64,000 bases of DNA from Eubacteriales bacterium (GCA_045544255.1 JAZPYP010000074.1:9411-73410); one strand, 5' to 3'. Shown: positions 17,211 to 54,988, numbered from the stretch's first letter. Notes: generated by a model from the sequence alone, not told the origin. Made by a program: numbers and translations.

Positions 17211-17287
17211 GGCCCGGTAGTTCAGCTGGTTAGAACGCTAGCCTGTCACGCTAGAGGTCGTGGGTTCGAGCCCCATCCGGGTCGCCA
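17211..17287 (+). tRNA. tRNA-Asp (anticodon GTC), CCA encoded
   Basis: Cloverleaf folded by eye: acceptor GGCCCGG/CCGGGTC, anticodon loop CTGTCAC, T loop TTCGAGC, 3' GCCA. Confidence 0.95.
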
Positions 17288-17292
17288 TTTTT

Positions 17293-17368
17293 GCTGCTAT
17301 AGCTCAGGTGGTAGAGTGCATCCTTGGTAAGGATGAGGTCACCAGTTCAAATCTGGTTAGCAGCTCCA
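17293..17368 (+). tRNA. tRNA-Thr (anticodon GGT), CCA encoded
   Basis: Acceptor GCTGCTA/TAGCAGC, anticodon stem CATCC/GGATG with loop TTGGTAA, T loop TTCAAAT, 3' TCCA. Confidence 0.95.
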
Positions 17369-21467: not shown

Positions 21468-21552
21468 GCGAGAGTGGCGGAACTGGCAGACGCGCACGTT
21501 TGAGGGGCGTGTGGTTAACACCGTACGGGTTCAAGTCCCGTCTTTCGCACCA
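21468..21552 (+). tRNA. tRNA-Leu (anticodon GAG), long variable arm, CCA encoded
   Basis: Acceptor GCGAGAG/CTTTCGC, anticodon stem CACGT/GCGTG with loop TTGAGGG, extra arm, T loop TTCAAGT, 3' ACCA. Confidence 0.92.
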
Positions 21553-33192: not shown

Positions 33193-33591
33193 ATGATTGT
33201 TATTTTATGTATTGATGATAGGGGAGGCCTGCTCTTTAATAAGCGGCGGGTCTCCTCGGATCAAAAGGTTTGCGAGCGAATTTGCGCCCTTGCTGCAGAT
33301 GGAGTGTTAAGAATGAATCATTATTCGGCGTTGCTTTTTAAGAGCATAAAACCGGAAGTTGATGAGGATTTCATGAATCAAGCAGAAGCGGGAGATTTTT
33401 GCTTTGTTGAAGATCAGAATCTCTCGCAGTATGGGGATAAGATCGAAAAATGGATCCTATATAGATGGAATCGAAAATATCCCTCGGATTTCAAATTTGA
33501 TTTTTCACTCCTTAATGGCAAAGAACTCATTCAATCTTCAAATTTTGAAGGCAGTTCCCATTCGGAAATTACAGAGGAGATTTACCAATGA
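33193..33591 (+). CDS. Small cytoplasmic hypothetical protein, DHFR-like layout with degenerate motifs
   Basis: 132 aa. The N-terminus MIVILCIDDRGGLLFNKRR and the C-terminal WILYRWNRKYPSDFKFD resemble the beta-strand pattern of dihydrofolate reductase, but the GG cofactor motif is absent. Its stop overlaps the next start (ATGA). Confidence 0.55.
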   Translation: MIVILCIDDRGGLLFNKRRVSSDQKVCERICALAADGVLRMNHYSALLFKSIKPEVDEDFMNQAEAGDFCFVEDQNLSQYGDKIEKWILYRWNRKYPSDFKFDFSLLNGKELIQSSNFEGSSHSEITEEIYQ

Positions 33592-34454
33592 AAATGCAAA
33601 AAAGATTTTTAGCTTTTCTTTTGCTGATTACCGCTGTTCTTTCATTATTTGGGTGTTTTCTGCAGGAAAAAGCAAGCTATTCCATCGGCGAAATTCCGCC
33701 GTTTTCAAATGAACCTTATGTTGTTGTTAATGATAATCAGCCCAATTTTTCAAAGGAGCAATTAAAATCAAAGTCTTATGAAAAATATGCTCCGTTGGAT
33801 ATTTTGGGCAGATGCGGGCCGGCTATCGCTTGCATTGGAAAAGATTTGATGCCCGATGAAGATCGAAAGAGCATCGGTCAGGTGAAACCAAGCGGTTGGC
33901 ATACAGTGAAGTATGATTGTGTTGATGGTAAATATCTTTATAATCGATGCCATTTGATTGGATTTCAATTAACAGGCGAAAATGCCAACGAGCAAAATCT
34001 TATTACCGGAACCCGCTATATGAATGTTGATGGTGTATTGCCCTTTGAAAACATGATTGCCGACTATATTAAGGAAACAGATCATCATGTTTTATATCGG
34101 GTAACGCCGATTTTTGATGGGAATAACCTTGTTGCTTCCGGTGTGCAGCTTGAGGCTTTTTCAGTCGAGGATCAGGGCGCTGGGGTTTGTTTCAATGTTT
34201 ATGCATATAACTGCCAGCCCGGAGTAGTGATTGATTATGCAACGGGGGCAAGCCGATTAGAAAATGAGCCGGAAAAATCCGATAGCGATGAGGCAGAGGA
34301 ATATATCTTAAATGTTAATTCCAAAAAGATTCATCTTTCTTCTTGCTCTGGCGCAAAAAACATGAAGGAATCCAATAAAGAGATTTCCTCTAAATCCATA
34401 ACCGAATTAATTGCCGAGGGCTATGAGCCTTGCGGCCAATGCCTGAAAGATTGA
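33588..34454 (+). CDS. Secreted lipoprotein DNA/RNA non-specific endonuclease (EndA/DNA-entry nuclease type) with C-terminal Cys-rich tail
   Basis: Lipobox LSLFGC. Nuclease core YNRCHLIGFQLTGENANEQNLITGTRYMN...YRVTPIFDGNNLVASGVQLEAFS. C-terminal segment IHLSSCSG...EPCGQC. Confidence 0.82.
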   Translation: MKMQKRFLAFLLLITAVLSLFGCFLQEKASYSIGEIPPFSNEPYVVVNDNQPNFSKEQLKSKSYEKYAPLDILGRCGPAIACIGKDLMPDEDRKSIGQVKPSGWHTVKYDCVDGKYLYNRCHLIGFQLTGENANEQNLITGTRYMNVDGVLPFENMIADYIKETDHHVLYRVTPIFDGNNLVASGVQLEAFSVEDQGAGVCFNVYAYNCQPGVVIDYATGASRLENEPEKSDSDEAEEYILNVNSKKIHLSSCSGAKNMKESNKEISSKSITELIAEGYEPCGQCLKD

Positions 34455-34457
34455 TTA

Positions 34458-34493
34458 TTAAATAATATCCCGCCTTTGGCGGCATATTATTTT
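34458..34493. terminator. Terminator hairpin, copy 1 of a 36-bp direct repeat
   Basis: TTAAATAATATCCCGCCTTTGGCGGCATATTATTTT. 14-bp stem with one C-C mismatch, A/T tracts on both sides, immediately after the nuclease stop codon. Confidence 0.8.
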
Positions 34494-34610
34494 CAGACTG
34501 TCAAAAAAGCCCCCGACCGCAGAAAAAGGAAAGAAAGCAAACAGATTGTGCCAATCAATAAGTCAAGAAGGAGAAAGAGATGTCATTCTTACTTTTTGTT
34601 CTCTTTAAAA

Positions 34611-34885
34611 GGAAAAAATCCGCATGGTAATGCGGATTTCATTATAATTTTCTGCTATCCGCCAAACCGCTCTCTACCGTGCGTCAAACCTAATGGTAAC
34701 CGTTCCATTTTGCTCAATAGCAAAACACCACTTATACCATTAGGTTCTCCTTTTCCCCAACAAAACTTTTGTTTTGCCGGGGTGCCCCCCAAAAACGCCG
34801 ACGAGAACGGTTTGACGAATTCGGAAACATTTTTGAGAGTCTCCCAGCGTGTCAAAGATAATAAAACAGGGTTCTTTGACACGCT
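34611..34885 (-). ncRNA. Candidate structured non-coding RNA of unknown class (about 250-275 nt) with its own intrinsic terminator
   Basis: Several perfect nested helices, described in the finding. One 12-bp helix has two G-U pairs that are valid only on the minus strand. The minus-strand terminator AAATCCGCA/TGCGGATTT is followed by U-rich sequence at 34639-34604. I found no convincing promoter or coding potential. Confidence 0.5.
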
Positions 34886-34921
34886 TTAAATAATATCCCG
34901 CCTTTGGCGGGATATTATTTT
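34886..34921. terminator. Terminator hairpin, copy 2 of the 36-bp direct repeat
   Basis: TTAAATAATATCCCGCCTTTGGCGGGATATTATTTT. Perfect 14-bp stem. It differs from copy 1 at one base (G at 34911 versus C at 34483). Confidence 0.8.
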
Positions 34922-34963
34922 TATGAAGGAGATTGCATATAATAAGATATATCTTGAGAGGTT

Positions 34964-35794
34964 ATGGTGAAGATGGATCTATTTTGTGTATTCATAAAAG
35001 GGATTTGGATCGGCGCAACATTATCAATTCCGGGAATCAGCGGCGGATCAATGGCGATGATATTGGGGATTTATGAAAAATTAATCCTTTCTTTCAACAA
35101 GCTGTTTCAAAAAGGGGAAAAGAAAAAGGAGAGTTTCTTATTTATCCTTGTATTTTCTTTAGGTGCGTTAACAGGATTATTTGCAATTTCCGGTTTAGTT
35201 GTTCGCTTATTGAAGCAATATCCTTTGCCGATATCTTTTCTTTTTGCCGGCGCGGTTCTTGGTGGAATGAGAGTGATTTTTCATGAGATTAATAGAGAAA
35301 TATTAAAGGCATCCGATATTCTCTATCCCCTTATTGGAATTGCTATTGTATTATCGATCGCTTCTTTACCAAGTGGCCTTGTTTCTTTTGAGAATAGCGG
35401 CCCTTTTCAGTGGTTGCTTCAAATTGCCATAGGAATAGTTGCGGCAGTTGCGTTGGTATTGCCCGGAATCAGCATTTCTCAGGTTCTTTATGTTCTTGGC
35501 ATGTATACCCTGATTTTCGAGCATCTTTCGCGATTTTCTTTGCTGCCTTTAATTCCGTTTGCTATGGGGCTTTTATCTGGCGTTATATTTATTTCAAAGG
35601 CATTGGAAGATTTATTAATACGATTTCGAAAGGAAACATTTTTGGTAACCTTGGGCTTTGTGGGCGGCTCAGTAATAGAGCTGCTTCAGAGCGTATCCTA
35701 TAATGAGTTTGGTTTTCACTGTATTCTATTGCTTATGATTGGGTTTATCCCCATTTTTATGATCTCTAAAAAGGAAAGAGTGCGTCAGGAATAA
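34964..35794 (+). CDS. DUF368-family polytopic membrane protein (family recently linked to undecaprenyl-phosphate recycling)
   Basis: Signature IPGISGGSMAMILGIYEKLI near the N-terminus and a second PGISISQVLYVLG repeat. The start may be 34964 or 34973. Confidence 0.82.
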   Translation: MVKMDLFCVFIKGIWIGATLSIPGISGGSMAMILGIYEKLILSFNKLFQKGEKKKESFLFILVFSLGALTGLFAISGLVVRLLKQYPLPISFLFAGAVLGGMRVIFHEINREILKASDILYPLIGIAIVLSIASLPSGLVSFENSGPFQWLLQIAIGIVAAVALVLPGISISQVLYVLGMYTLIFEHLSRFSLLPLIPFAMGLLSGVIFISKALEDLLIRFRKETFLVTLGFVGGSVIELLQSVSYNEFGFHCILLLMIGFIPIFMISKKERVRQE

Positions 35795-35810
35795 CCTGAC
35801 GCACTTTTTT
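35779..35810. terminator. Bidirectional terminator between DUF368 and the GH20 gene
   Basis: AGTGCGTCAGG / CCTGACGCACT stem with the DUF368 stop codon in the loop, then TTTTT. Confidence 0.8.
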
Positions 35811-37647
35811 AATAGTTGATGCAAGCGCTGGAAAATTTCACCCAGCTTGTAAAAAGATCCGGAACTTCAAGAAGCGGTTGCTCTAATTGTTCGATTTTTT
35901 CTCTTTTGCCGCTTAGATATTCTTCAATTGTGCGTTTTGCAGTGGAAAGGCGTTCTTTAAGGCCGCCAATTCGAAGCTCGATAATATCAAAACCAAAAGT
36001 CTTATTATCATAGTACCATTCTTCTCGGGCAGCATCAAGATATTCGCCAAGTGCCGCAAGAGTTTGAGGGATAATGTTTTCGGCAATATCTTTTAAGGTT
36101 GATGAATCTCCTTTGTTATATGCTTCTCTGGTTTCGTAAGAAAGAGTCGCTTTGGTTGAAAGGGTTTTGGCGAGAAGGGAAGCGGTTTTAAAAAGATAAC
36201 CAAACTGATCACTCTTGATTTTTGCGAGTTTTTCCGCCTTTTCAGCATACTCATCGGCATAGCAGGGGCTAACATGGCAATCAAACCAACCGCCCAAAGG
36301 ATCGTTATATAGAAAGGCTTTCGAAGTGGGGATATTTCTTGTTAAAGTATTATAATCGCTAAATTGATTGAGGGAATCCAGCTGCAGGAATTCATCGAAA
36401 GAAACATCGAAGGTTTCGGCAAAACGCGCTTTAACCCAATTATGATCTTCGCCGTTTGCATAGCAATATTCGGCATATTGCTGAAGAGTGGGCAAAATTG
36501 CAAAATTGGAAACCTCGCTTCCGTTATCGCCCCAAGCGGTGGCGATCACCATGGGAAGCTTCTCTTCTTTGCAGATTTTTAGATGCATATCATTCACATG
36601 AAGAGAGTAATAATTTCTCGGCGCATTGCTATCCCATTTCCAAGCGCCGCCTGCAAAATAATAAGGGTTGTTAAATTGCTTATGGCAATGGATCATATGG
36701 CGGAAGGTTTGCTCATCTTCGGGCAGAGTATAATAATTCCAATATATAAGAGTAATCTCGGGCGGAACTTCGTCAATAACGCGCTGGGGAATTTCCCCTT
36801 TGGATACGCGATATTCGCCAAAGGTTGCCCGAAAGAACATATCGCTCCAAATCATCGGCTGATACTCATATTTTTTACAGATCTCAACAACACGCTTTAG
36901 ATGGTCTAAAACAATGTCGTGGCGATGGCGATGGCCGTTTTTAATCAAATATTGGCCTGCGCCGAGGGTCCATGCTTCATCCATTCCCAAATTGATGCGA
37001 TTGGAGCGAAAAGAGGCTTTGCAACTTTTAAGCATGCAGTCGATTAAATGATAGGTTTTTTCTTCTCCAACAAGCAGAATATTATCGATATCTTTAATCT
37101 CGCTGAAGGAATTCCATCTTAATGCTCCCTCAAGATGCGCAAGAACCTGAATGCAGGGGATTACTTCGATTCCAAAGGAATAGGCGTAATCATCAATTTC
37201 TTTAAGTTCCTCTTGAGAAAATCTTCCGCGCAGATAACCAAAGAGCGGATATTCAGGGATTTCATAAGTATCTTCGGTATAGAGCATCATGGAAGTAAAG
37301 CCCATCATGGCAAGGTAACGAATCATTCTTTTGGCAGAAGGAAGATTAAAAACTGCATTACGGGAGCATTCTGCCATTAAGCAAAGATCATCATGGGCGG
37401 GAGTTTCTTCATAATTGCCAATAGATTCCAATTTATTCGGAAGCATGGTGAGAAGGCGGAAAAACTCCGGAATTTTATGGAATTCCAAGGTTCCCTTATT
37501 TTTCTCAATGGTAAGTTTAGGGCCAATATTATTTTCTTTAACCTCAATGGGAAAGCCTTCTTGAGAGATTTTAAAGCGAAGATAGGGGAGAATCTCTTTA
37601 AGCGGCTTTTCCAATTTCTGGGGCAAATTTAAAAGATGAATTTCCAT
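35809..37647 (-). CDS. Glycoside hydrolase family 20 beta-N-acetylhexosaminidase-like enzyme
   Basis: TIM-barrel GH20 pattern including the catalytic motif context INLGMDEAW and MLYTEDTYEIP...VIPCIQVLAHLE. Confidence 0.8.
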   Translation of the reverse strand: MEIHLLNLPQKLEKPLKEILPYLRFKISQEGFPIEVKENNIGPKLTIEKNKGTLEFHKIPEFFRLLTMLPNKLESIGNYEETPAHDDLCLMAECSRNAVFNLPSAKRMIRYLAMMGFTSMMLYTEDTYEIPEYPLFGYLRGRFSQEELKEIDDYAYSFGIEVIPCIQVLAHLEGALRWNSFSEIKDIDNILLVGEEKTYHLIDCMLKSCKASFRSNRINLGMDEAWTLGAGQYLIKNGHRHRHDIVLDHLKRVVEICKKYEYQPMIWSDMFFRATFGEYRVSKGEIPQRVIDEVPPEITLIYWNYYTLPEDEQTFRHMIHCHKQFNNPYYFAGGAWKWDSNAPRNYYSLHVNDMHLKICKEEKLPMVIATAWGDNGSEVSNFAILPTLQQYAEYCYANGEDHNWVKARFAETFDVSFDEFLQLDSLNQFSDYNTLTRNIPTSKAFLYNDPLGGWFDCHVSPCYADEYAEKAEKLAKIKSDQFGYLFKTASLLAKTLSTKATLSYETREAYNKGDSSTLKDIAENIIPQTLAALGEYLDAAREEWYYDNKTFGFDIIELRIGGLKERLSTAKRTIEEYLSGKREKIEQLEQPLLEVPDLFTSWVKFSSACINY

Positions 37648-54866: not shown

Positions 54867-54883
54867 TATTTAATTACAATTTT

Positions 54884-54970
54884 AAACGGGGTGCTGAGTA
54901 AACTCGGCTGAGAGGATGAATGAATTCATCTAACCCATGAACCTGATGCGGGTAATGCCGACGTAGGAAC
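54884..54970 (+). promoter_or_regulatory. TPP (THI-box) riboswitch aptamer
   Basis: GGGGTGC...CTGAGA...ACCC...AACCTGATGCGGGTAATGCCGACGTAGGAA matches the conserved TPP aptamer core. Confidence 0.9.
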
Positions 54971-54988
54971 TATATTTTGCCTTTTATT

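What the first reader, a model, noticed from the sequence alone, without database searches (positions are those of the whole stretch)
34611..34885. Densely structured, terminator-ended candidate ncRNA of unrecognised class inside the insert
The insert is packed with perfect helices.

Helices (plus-strand coordinates):
- 12-bp AGCGTGTCAAAG / CTTTGACACGCT (34846-57 / 34874-85)
- 9-bp CGTCAAACC / GGTTTGACG (34682-90 / 34809-17), which encloses the next three
- 12-bp AACCTAATGGTA / TACCATTAGGTT (34687-98 / 34735-46)
- 7-bp TTTTGCT / AGCAAAA hairpin (34708-25)
- a 12-bp hairpin at 34755-82

On the minus strand the last hairpin reads CCCCGGCAAAAC-AAAA-GTTTTGTTGGGG with two G-U pairs. On the plus strand those two pairs would be A-C mismatches.

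The low-coordinate end has AAATCCGCA / TGCGGATTT (34616-39). On the minus strand this is followed by UUUUUUCCUUUU, a good intrinsic terminator.

Together this predicts a minus-strand RNA of roughly 250-275 nt with a multi-branched fold. No gene lies downstream of it on that strand, so it would be a stand-alone RNA and not a leader. I do not recognise it as 6S, SRP, tmRNA, RNase P or any riboswitch class I know.

There is an alternative reading on the plus strand. The block ends exactly at terminator copy 2, 42 nt upstream of the DUF368 gene. TATCCGCC at 34657-34664 resembles the 5' arm of that terminator. A very long riboswitch-like leader for DUF368 therefore cannot be excluded. I could not find a convincing promoter for either orientation.
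Basis: partly seen in the sequence, partly recalled or inferred. Interest (0 to 1): 0.75.

Follow-up and report, generated by a model that had tools for sequence, protein, structure and literature searches.

The report
Terminator-duplicating miniature transposon with structured RNA
The "candidate ncRNA" is one copy of a small, non-coding mobile repeat found in uncultured gut Clostridia; it inserts at transcription terminators, duplicates the whole terminator hairpin, and carries a conserved folded RNA-like core on its minus strand.

Summary
It is not a stand-alone, single-copy ncRNA gene, and it is not a DUF368 leader.

It is one member of a multi-copy repeat family. A public-genome scan found 40 loci in 9 Eubacteriales/Clostridia MAGs. 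Copies are about 285 nt (short) or about 390 nt (long, as in the window). The ends are imperfect inverted repeats, CAG(A/C)(C/G)TGTCAAA.

About 25 of 30 complete copies are flanked by a direct duplication of a different local terminator hairpin (18-37 nt), next to gene 3' ends. This is the signature of a MITE-like transposon that targets palindromic terminators with cuts staggered across the whole hairpin. IS1182-family elements such as IS1272 are the nearest precedent. No transposase partner was found.

The copies share a secondary structure with real covariation: 59 pairs, 97.8% paired, 14 with double changes. High-frequency G·U pairs in the core helices occur only on the minus strand.

A promoter-like site (TTGACA-16-AAAAAT) and a strong internal terminator bracket a predicted minus-strand sRNA, 34822 to 34608 in the window. 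There is no Rfam match.

Verdict: a new variant of a known kind, of moderate interest.

The parts
34458..34493 (+). Target-site duplication, copy 1. This is the intrinsic terminator hairpin of the upstream Endonuclea_NS_2 gene (33588-34454).
   Evidence: 36-nt direct repeat with 34886-34921, 35 of 36 identical. The gene is identified.
34494..34885 (-). The mobile element itself: a long-variant copy (392 nt) of a MITE-like repeat family. The strand given is that of the conserved fold.
   Evidence: BLAST and nhmmer match family copies in 40 loci. The window copy scores E = 4e-78 against the family HMM. L002 is 86.5% identical over 401 nt at a different terminator.
34886..34921 (+).
34494..34509 (+). 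Left terminal inverted repeat, CAGACTGTCAAAAAAG.
   Evidence: Conserved at the element boundary in all complete copies. The motif occurs in the window only at the element ends.
34846..34885 (-). Right end: hairpin P1. It holds the right terminal repeat (CAGCGTGTCAAAGAAC on the minus strand) and its inverted copy. Its 3' arm carries a perfect -35 hexamer, TTGACA (34855 to 34850, minus strand).
   Evidence: (I7). Its invariance among the copies is partly an artefact, because the scan pattern required it.
34821..34842 (-). Internal inverted copy of the left terminal repeat. It forms the 5' arm of the outer helices that pair with 34495-34516. It also contains the -10-like AAAAAT (34834 to 34829, minus strand; the spacer is 15 nt in this copy and 16 nt in most copies).
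   Evidence: I3; helices 2 and 3, with 3 compensatory pairs.
34657..34674 (-). 3' arm (in minus-strand terms) of the main covarying helix (helix 4). It pairs with 34803-34820.
   Evidence: (I5), 39, 63, 65: 16 pairs, 7 with changes on both sides (CAAA/TTTG, GGGG/CCCC, CGAT/ATCG variants).
34803..34820 (-). 5' arm of helix 4.
   Evidence: Same as above.
34672..34805 (-). Apical domain found only in long variants. It comprises hairpin B (34755-82, two G-U pairs), the unpaired purine tract AAAAGGAGAA (34754 to 34745), hairpin A (34687-34746) and the inner hairpin 34708-25.
   Evidence: Alignment of 6 long copies with compensatory changes. CM R1 hits 34672-34805 at 136.7 bits.
34609..34640 (-). 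Internal intrinsic terminator: stem 34640 to 34615, then a U tract. It is conserved in all copies.
34608..34822 (-). Predicted element-borne sRNA, about 215 nt, running from about 7 nt after the -10-like box to the end of the terminator U tract. The ends are inferred, not measured.
   Evidence: Fold -95.9 kcal/mol, z = -9.15. The same promoter-terminator unit is found in L030 and L022.
34564..34607 (.). Degenerate copy of a family hairpin (consensus CGAGAAAGAG...CTCTTTCTCG). Its purine arm mimics a ribosome-binding site ahead of a 16-codon ORF (34580-34630) that is not conserved.

Best explanation
The region 34494-34885 is a non-autonomous DNA transposon (MITE-like), present as the long variant of its family.

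Shown:
- It belongs to a family of at least 40 copies in related uncultured Clostridia.
- It has imperfect terminal inverted repeats and no conserved ORF.
- It is almost always inserted at a gene's intrinsic terminator.
- The complete terminator hairpin, with a different sequence at each locus, is duplicated on both sides.

Inferred mechanism of insertion:
- A transposase supplied in trans binds the CAG(A/C)(C/G)TGTCAAA ends.
- It picks palindromic or cruciform terminators by shape, not by sequence.
- It joins the element ends at the two outer feet of the palindrome.
- Gap repair then copies the whole hairpin (18-37 bp).
- This is the behaviour modelled for IS1182-family DDE elements such as IS1272.
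- The upstream gene keeps a terminator, and the element is insulated on both sides. The site is therefore a harmless landing place.

Shown by covariation: the element keeps a multi-helix fold that pairs best on the minus strand.

Inferred from this fold:
- The element expresses a minus-strand sRNA from a promoter whose -35 box lies in the terminal hairpin.
- The sRNA ends at the internal terminator (34822 to 34608 here).
- It probably descends from, or regulates, the untranslated regions of the parent transposase mRNA. It retains a Shine-Dalgarno-like tract plus an AUG sequestered in hairpin A.
- The window copy looks slightly decayed: the promoter spacer is 15 nt and one hairpin is broken.
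For: Family and mobility:
- The genome scan with the terminal hairpin found 45 loci. Forty belong to the family, across 9 MAGs, and many lie at contig ends.
- BLAST defines short copies (~285 nt), long copies (~390 nt) and one ~195-nt variant with the same ends.
- In 24-26 of 30 complete copies a locus-specific hairpin of 18-37 nt (median 31) abuts both junctions.
- 26 of 31 copies have a gene 3' end within 120 nt.
- The terminal motif occurs in the window only at the element ends.
- No conserved ORF exists.

Structure:
- 59 pairs are 97.8% paired, and 14 pairs have changes on both sides.
- The covariation score is 0.176, against 0.082 for shuffles (0 of 500 reach it) and 0.04-0.06 for slid partners.
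- The same pairs are 97.8% paired on the minus strand and 91.1% on the plus strand.
- All high-frequency wobble positions in helices 3, 4 and B are G-U on the minus strand.

Expression signals:
- TTGACA-16-AAAAAT is present in 21 of 31 copies, with a terminator on the same strand.
- The predicted sRNAs fold with z = -9.15 (window) and -8.15 (L030).

Precedent:
- IS1272 (IS1182 family) targets terminator stem-loops. A published model predicts whole stem-loop duplication when joining occurs at the 5' feet (PMC5678879; PMC4923244).
Against: - No transposase or full-length parent with these ends was found in any locus, in viral contigs, or in plasmid and phage collections. The DDE / IS1182-like assignment therefore rests on analogy.
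- IS1272 itself deletes the target hairpin rather than duplicating it.
- No clean empty site was recovered for the window locus.
- There are no expression data. The -10 box is weak, and its spacer is 15 nt in the window copy.
- Helices 2, 3 and 5 pair across the internal terminator, so they would not lie within the predicted sRNA.
- One left-side hairpin shows wobble pairs that favour the plus strand.
- Most G-U cells come from a few fixed positions, so they are few independent events.
- The copies were found through an exact terminal-hairpin pattern, which biases the sample.
Confidence: 0.7

Rival explanations
1. It is a purely DNA-level MITE. The conserved pairing would reflect inverted repeats and palindromes kept for transposase binding or inherited from the parent IS. 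Any transcript would be incidental and without function.
For: - Terminal and subterminal inverted repeats are typical of MITEs, and four copies of the end motif are present.
- MITE transcripts generally fold into stable stem-loops (PMC10969869).
- Both strands fold well.
- Several covarying changes come from single subfamilies.
Against: - The covarying block in helix 4 changes freely (CAAA, GGGG, CGAT) as long as complementarity is kept. It also sits at asymmetric distances from the two ends.
- Fixed mismatches between the arms are all transitions that read as G-U on one strand, and they include a U-G to G-U flip.
- A promoter-like site and a terminator bracket the core on that same strand.
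Confidence: 0.2
2. It is an RNA-mediated (SINE-like) or single-stranded-DNA mobile element. The minus-strand fold would be the transposition intermediate, recognised by a reverse transcriptase or an HUH/Y1 enzyme that acts at hairpins.
For: - Selection acts on a strand-specific fold that brings the two element ends together (the P1 hairpin stacked on the outer helix).
- The duplication length is variable, as in target-primed reverse transcription.
- No transposase partner was found.
Against: - The sharp inverted-repeat ends CAG...CTG fit a cut/strand-transfer transposase.
- IS200/IS605-type elements make no target duplication.
- No 5'-truncated series, no A-tail and no RT or HUH gene was seen in about 270 kb of flanking DNA.
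- Rfam finds no group II intron, retron or ribozyme match.
Confidence: 0.08
3. It is a stand-alone chromosomal ncRNA gene of a new class, conserved for a host function and not mobile.
For: Strong fold, covariation, a terminator, and no Rfam match.
Against: - There are up to 13 copies per MAG, at unrelated loci and in both orientations relative to neighbouring genes.
- Each copy has terminal inverted repeats and a locus-specific flanking duplication.
- Deletion variants exist.
Confidence: 0.03
4. It is a plus-strand riboswitch-like leader of the DUF368 gene.
For: It lies 42 nt upstream of DUF368, and a promoter-like TTGAGA-18-GATAAT sits at 34833-62 on the plus strand.
Against: - An intact terminator copy (34886-34921) lies between it and DUF368.
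- The same element occurs next to about 30 unrelated genes.
- DUF368 loci in relatives have a tRNA, and no such sequence, upstream.
- The core helices contain A-C mismatches on the plus strand.
Confidence: 0.01

Closest known systems
IS1182-family insertion sequences (e.g. IS1272 of staphylococci) and MITEs derived from them
   Same: The target is a palindromic stem-loop, usually an intrinsic terminator just downstream of a gene, with no primary-sequence specificity (PMC4923244, PMC5678879). A published model predicts whole stem-loop duplication when strand transfer occurs at the 5' feet. From my own recollection of ISfinder, which I did not check here, the family is listed with direct repeats of 0-60 bp. 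Extra copies of a terminal repeat at one end are also seen in IS1272L and TnSha1.
   Different: IS1272 deletes or replaces the hairpin, whereas this family duplicates it. No IS1182-type transposase (or any other) with matching ends was found. Similarity of the terminal repeats to known members was not tested. A conserved strand-specific internal fold is not described for that family.
Bacterial MITEs that give rise to small RNAs or fold as RNA (Coxiella QMITE, Neisseria Correia, ERIC, pneumococcal RUP/BOX/SPRITE)
   Same: They are short, non-coding, multi-copy and intergenic, with terminal inverted repeats and stable predicted transcript structure. Some carry promoters or terminators or yield sRNAs (PMC10969869).
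   Different: Those elements make short fixed duplications (2-9 bp) and do not duplicate a whole terminator. Here the fold is a multi-branched structure with compensatory changes, not a simple foldback of the two ends.
Bacterial class C group II introns
   Same: They insert immediately next to intrinsic terminator stem-loops, which they recognise by structure.
   Different: There is no ribozyme domain and no Rfam match. The element is far too small. It has inverted-repeat ends and duplicates the hairpin, which introns do not do.
IS200/IS605 PATE elements and IS110-family elements with bridge RNA or Ssr9-type RNA modules
   Same: They show strand-specific hairpins or a structured RNA inside a small mobile unit, and they insert at extragenic palindromes (REP) (PMC12288879).
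   Different: Those families make no long target duplication and choose sequence-defined targets. Here the targets share only their shape, and the ends are inverted repeats.

Membership tests
MITE (non-autonomous DNA transposon) | Short (less than about 600 bp) with no coding capacity | tested here: met
   Copies are 195-392 nt. No ORF is conserved among them.
MITE (non-autonomous DNA transposon) | Many dispersed copies per genome | tested here: met
   40 loci in 9 MAGs, up to 13 in one MAG.
MITE (non-autonomous DNA transposon) | Terminal inverted repeats | tested here: met
   CAGACTGTCAAAAAAG against CAGCGTGTCAAAGAAC, about 14 of 19 positions. The boundaries are sharp in all copies.
MITE (non-autonomous DNA transposon) | Target-site duplication flanking each copy | tested here: met
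   24-26 of 30 copies show one. It is unusual in being the entire local terminator hairpin, 18-37 nt.
MITE (non-autonomous DNA transposon) | An autonomous IS partner sharing the ends | tested here: inconclusive
   None was found in 45 genome loci, viral contigs, plasmids or phages. MAG assemblies often lose multi-copy ISs.
IS1182 family (as the source or mobiliser) | Insertion into palindromic or terminator stem-loops without sequence specificity | tested here: met
   compared with PMC4923244 and PMC5678879.
IS1182 family (as the source or mobiliser) | A DDE transposase of the IS1182 type encoded by a partner with the same ends | tested here: inconclusive
   No partner was found. Candidate ORFs next to copies turned out to be Glyco_hydro_77.
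IS1182 family (as the source or mobiliser) | Terminal repeats similar to those of known family members | not tested
IS200/IS605 (PATE) | No inverted-repeat ends and no target duplication; insertion 3' of a fixed tetra- or pentanucleotide | tested here: not met
   Inverted-repeat ends and long duplications are present, and the flanks share no common sequence.
Group II intron (class C) | Ribozyme domains (e.g. domain V) and no duplication of the terminator | tested here: not met
   No Rfam intron hit. The terminator is duplicated.
Any Rfam 15 RNA family (6S, tmRNA, RNase P, SRP, riboswitches, HEARO, ROOL, GOLLD, raiA and others) | A covariance-model score at or above the gathering threshold | tested here: not met
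   Nothing in 34300-35100, even at E <= 10, other than terminator look-alikes. Nothing in homologous loci either.
Stand-alone sRNA gene | Promoter, defined transcript and terminator, with demonstrated expression | not testable with these tools
   A promoter-like site and a terminator are present on the minus strand. No transcript data are available.

The most novel reading that the evidence does not exclude
The element may be an RNA-centred mobile unit. Its conserved minus-strand fold would itself be required for mobility, for example as a bacterial SINE-like retroelement or as an RNA or ssDNA scaffold that recruits a structure-specific integrase to terminator hairpins. Its apical domain (hairpin B, a GGAG tract and hairpin A) would then be an independent RNA module shared with an unrelated terminator-associated unit in human-gut Clostridia.
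Probability: 0.1. Interest if true: 0.85.

Novelty: new variant of a known kind. Interest (0 to 1): 0.45.

Why it matters
- It re-labels an apparent orphan ncRNA as a mobile repeat. This matters for annotating these uncultured gut Clostridia, and it explains the duplicated terminator upstream of DUF368.
- The family gives an unusually clean natural data set, with about 25 independent insertions. It documents a transposition mode that is barely described: shape-directed insertion at intrinsic terminators with duplication of the entire hairpin. Such insertion leaves flanking genes terminated and insulates the element.
- The element carries a covarying, strand-specific fold between a promoter-like site and a terminator. 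If that fold is expressed, the element spreads a structured sRNA around the genome, and the sRNA may feed back on transposition.
- All of this is testable with RNA-seq and a transposition assay once the transposase is found.

Tried and rejected
- Rfam at gathering score and at relaxed thresholds, on the window and on homologous loci: no family.
- Coding readings: the 137-aa plus-strand ORF and the 75-aa minus-strand ORF have implausible translations. The 16-codon ORF with a perfect RBS (34580-34630) is a degenerate hairpin arm that is not conserved.
- blastn of the insert against the plasmid and phage collections: nothing.
- Exact-protein look-ups of the flanking genes: not on record.
- Four viral-contig pattern scans: nothing.
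- The single metagenome scan used the long-variant hairpin B pattern, in the hope of catching a parent element. It found a different human-gut unit instead of this family.
- Search for a transposase: extra terminal-repeat matches, proteins repeated among loci, and Pfam on two 500-aa neighbours (which are Glyco_hydro_77). All negative.
- nhmmer for diverged copies in the window and in all loci: only two known fragments.
- Empty-site test through DUF368 relatives: the DUF368-GH20 arrangement is kept, but the upstream gene differs, so the result is not decisive.
- Models rejected: IS200/IS605, class C group II intron, integron attC, Xer/dif-type integration and IS110 bridge RNA. The reasons are that the flanking repeats differ from locus to locus, the ends are inverted repeats, and no matching RNA or protein signature is present.

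Full report
**1. Observation**

- 34846-58 / 34873-85, which is 13 bp rather than 12;
- 34682-90 / 34809-17;
- 34687-98 / 34735-46;
- 34708-14 / 34719-25;
- the 34755-82 hairpin;
- 34616-25 / 34630-39, which the terminator scan reports on the minus strand with a T-rich tail.

The insert 34494-34885 lies between two copies of a 36-nt hairpin, 34458-93 and 34886-921, identical at 35 of 36 positions.

The insert folds at -155.7 kcal/mol on the minus strand (z = -9.17) and -127.3 kcal/mol on the plus strand (z = -8.11). Rfam 15 gives nothing at gathering score, and only terminator look-alikes at E <= 10.

**2. It is a dispersed repeat, not a single gene**

I scanned one genome per GTDB species with the terminal hairpin pattern GCGTGTCAAAG-N10-20-CTTTGACACGC. 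This returned 45 loci.
- Forty come from nine Eubacteriales/Clostridia MAGs, with up to 13 per MAG.
- Many lie at contig ends, as expected for a repeat that breaks assemblies.
- Five hits in other phyla are chance palindromes.

BLAST of the window insert against these loci shows two main forms with the same ends.
- About 26 complete short copies of about 285 nt lack window 34681-34794.
- Four long copies of about 390 nt match the window copy. L002 is 86.5% identical over 401 nt.
- L040 is a third form of about 195 nt, explained by a deletion between two ATTTTCTGCG repeats.

The ends are CAGACTGTCAAAAAAG... and ...GTTCTTTGACACGCT(G). These are imperfect terminal inverted repeats sharing the core CAG(A/C)(C/G)TGTCAAA. 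In the 64-kb window this motif occurs only four times, all at the element ends.

No ORF is conserved. The window has only this one copy.

**3. The flanks**

In 24-26 of 30 complete copies, a hairpin of 18-37 nt (median 31) abuts both junctions as a direct repeat. Each typically consists of an A tract, a G+C stem-loop and a T tract. The hairpin sequence differs at every locus.

Most of the exceptions are explained as follows:
- L006 and L042 carry mixed flanks that share one hairpin, which points to recombination between copies.
- L020 and L045 carry a copy with a shortened loop.

Twenty-six of 31 copies have a gene 3' end within 120 nt, so the targets are real terminators. The gene end lies on the left in 20 copies, on the right in 14 and on both sides in 8. 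The element's orientation relative to these genes is not fixed.

In the window the target is the terminator of an Endonuclea_NS_2 gene (33588-34454). DUF368 (34964-35794) and a convergent GH20 gene follow.

The "36-nt terminator copy" is therefore a target-site duplication that spans the whole palindrome.

**4. Mechanism**

The following features fit a cut/strand-transfer transposon supplied with transposase in trans:
- inverted-repeat ends;
- sharp boundaries;
- duplications of variable length that track the size of each palindrome;
- no shared target sequence.

On this reading the enzyme recognises the palindrome or cruciform by shape. It joins the element at the two outer feet, and gap repair then duplicates the hairpin.

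The nearest documented system is the IS1182 family.
- IS1272 and TnSha1 insert into terminator stem-loops without sequence specificity (PMC4923244).
- Wan et al. draw a pathway in which joining at the 5' feet duplicates the whole stem-loop (PMC5678879).
- IS1272 itself removes the hairpin. This family would therefore use the sister pathway.
- From memory only, ISfinder lists direct repeats of 0-60 bp for the family.

I could not find the transposase.
- There are no extra end motifs and no proteins repeated among loci.
- Two 500-aa neighbours are Glyco_hydro_77.
- There are no additional diverged copies.
- Viral contigs, plasmids and phages hold nothing.

Membership in the IS1182 family is therefore untested. 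Only the working resemblance is supported.

**5. The fold is conserved and strand-specific**

*Overall statistics.* An alignment of 31 copies in minus orientation (A1) gives 59 consensus pairs in 7 helices.
- 97.8% of cells are paired.
- 14 pairs have changes on both sides.
- The covariation score is 0.176, against 0.082 +/- 0.005 for shuffles (0 of 500 reach it).
- With slid partners the score is 0.04-0.06.

*Covarying helices.* The clearest case is helix 4 (window 34657-74 with 34803-20). A 4-5-nt block reads CAAA/TTTG, GGGG/CCCC or CGAT/ATCG in different subfamilies. The outer helix (34495-516 with 34821-42) has three compensatory pairs in one subfamily.

*Strand.* The same 59 pairs are 97.8% paired on the minus strand but 91.1% on the plus strand.
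- All wobble positions that are fixed or frequent in helices 3, 4 and hairpin B are G-U on the minus strand. They include a U-G to G-U flip.
- The two G-U pairs of hairpin B become G-C and A-U in L017.
- Singleton mismatches in individual copies are about equally of both types, as expected for neutral decay.

*Long-variant domain.* The apical domain (34672-34805) also shows compensatory changes in hairpin A and in its inner hairpin.

*Caveats.*
- The P1 hairpin is invariant partly because the scan pattern demanded it.
- Several compensatory changes are single evolutionary events.
- One left-side hairpin (consensus CGAGAAAGAG/CTCTTTCTCG, degenerate in the window) prefers plus-strand wobbles.
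- Helices 2, 3 and 5 pair across the internal terminator.

**6. A transcription unit inside the element**

On the minus strand the 3' arm of P1 supplies a perfect TTGACA.
- In 21 of 31 copies it is followed after 16 nt by AAAAAT. In the window the spacer is 15 nt.
- The scan tool reports this site in L030 and L022. In L030 the internal terminator lies on the same strand.
- The predicted RNA is about 113 nt in short copies (z = -8.15).
- In the window it is about 215 nt, from 34822 to 34608 (-95.9 kcal/mol, z = -9.15).
- It consists of helix 4 capped by the apical domain, then a linker and the terminator.

The unpaired tract AAAAGGAGAA is followed after 6-7 nt by an AUG buried in hairpin A. This looks like a sequestered translation start. 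The ORFs that follow are 2 to about 80 codons long and are not conserved. I read this as a relic of, or decoy for, the parent transposase mRNA leader. That step is inference.

**7. Rivals**

- **DUF368 leader.** This is excluded. The element sits in about 30 unrelated contexts, an intact terminator copy lies between it and DUF368, and DUF368 relatives have a tRNA there instead.
- **Unique housekeeping ncRNA.** This is excluded by the copy distribution.
- **DNA-only MITE with an incidental fold.** This remains plausible (about 0.2).
- **RNA- or ssDNA-mediated element.** This cannot be excluded (about 0.1), but the inverted-repeat ends argue against it.

**8. Novelty and verdict**

MITEs, sRNA-bearing MITEs and terminator-seeking ISs are all known. 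The combination seen here appears to be undescribed in Rfam and in the papers I could search. It consists of whole-terminator duplication documented at about 25 independent sites and a multi-branched, covarying, strand-specific core between a promoter-like site and a terminator.

I file it as a new variant of a known kind, with interest 0.45.

Noticed in passing
L046 1500-1670 (also L054 6301-6432, L057, L059, L083); compare window 34672-34805: The metagenome scan for hairpin B found a ~170-nt unit in human-gut contigs (gcaatcaaagggcatat...atatgccttttgattgc). It lies directly after a terminator-like hairpin in at least three different contexts. It shares the module TCTCCTYT-CCCCAACAAAAC-loop-GTTTTGYCGGGG-N-CCCC. 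It also matches the whole apical-domain covariance model end to end at 28-30 bits, whereas hairpin B alone gives about 17-22 bits. It may be a shared RNA module. It has no Rfam hit.
   Followed up: partly
window 34580-34630 (+): A 16-codon ORF (MSFLLFVLFKRKKSAW) follows a perfect AAGGAG ribosome-binding site, and its stop codon lies in the loop of the terminator hairpin. In the family this region is the purine arm of a hairpin. The ORF is not conserved, so it is an artefact of decay.
   Followed up: yes
window 34833-34862 (+): An outward-facing promoter-like site, TTGAGA-18-GATAAT (10 of 12 matches), lies in the right end and points toward DUF368. Terminator copy 2 lies in between. The -35 part is conserved in the family.
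   Followed up: partly
L030 3418-3520: A solo, degenerate right-end fragment of the element is followed at once by a perfect TTGACA-17-TATAAT promoter. The -35 box overlaps element-derived sequence (GAATTGACA), and the promoter lies upstream of host genes. This may be a case of a transposon relic donating a promoter.
   Followed up: no
L006 and L042 flanks; L020 and L045: The right-flank hairpin of L006 equals the left-flank hairpin of L042, and the two loci come from different MAGs. This suggests recombination between copies or tandem insertions at one terminator. L020 and L045 come from the same MAG, carry the same locus at about 96% protein identity, and differ in loop length in one hairpin copy.
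   Followed up: partly
L040 2166-2376: A ~195-nt deletion variant places the hairpin B / GGAG / AUG module directly after the short-type helix-4 cap. This is a different position from that in the long variants, which hints that the module moves or recombines independently.
   Followed up: partly
window 54877-54987 (+); 17211-17365 and 21468-21549 (+): A TPP riboswitch (63.2 bits) and three tRNA genes are the only Rfam hits in the window.
   Followed up: no
window 33193-37647; L093-L095: DUF368 followed by a convergent GH20 glycosidase is conserved in relatives whose DUF368 is 53-56% identical. The nearest DUF368 homologue outside the window's own genome is only 56% identical, so the host lineage is poorly sampled.
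   Followed up: partly
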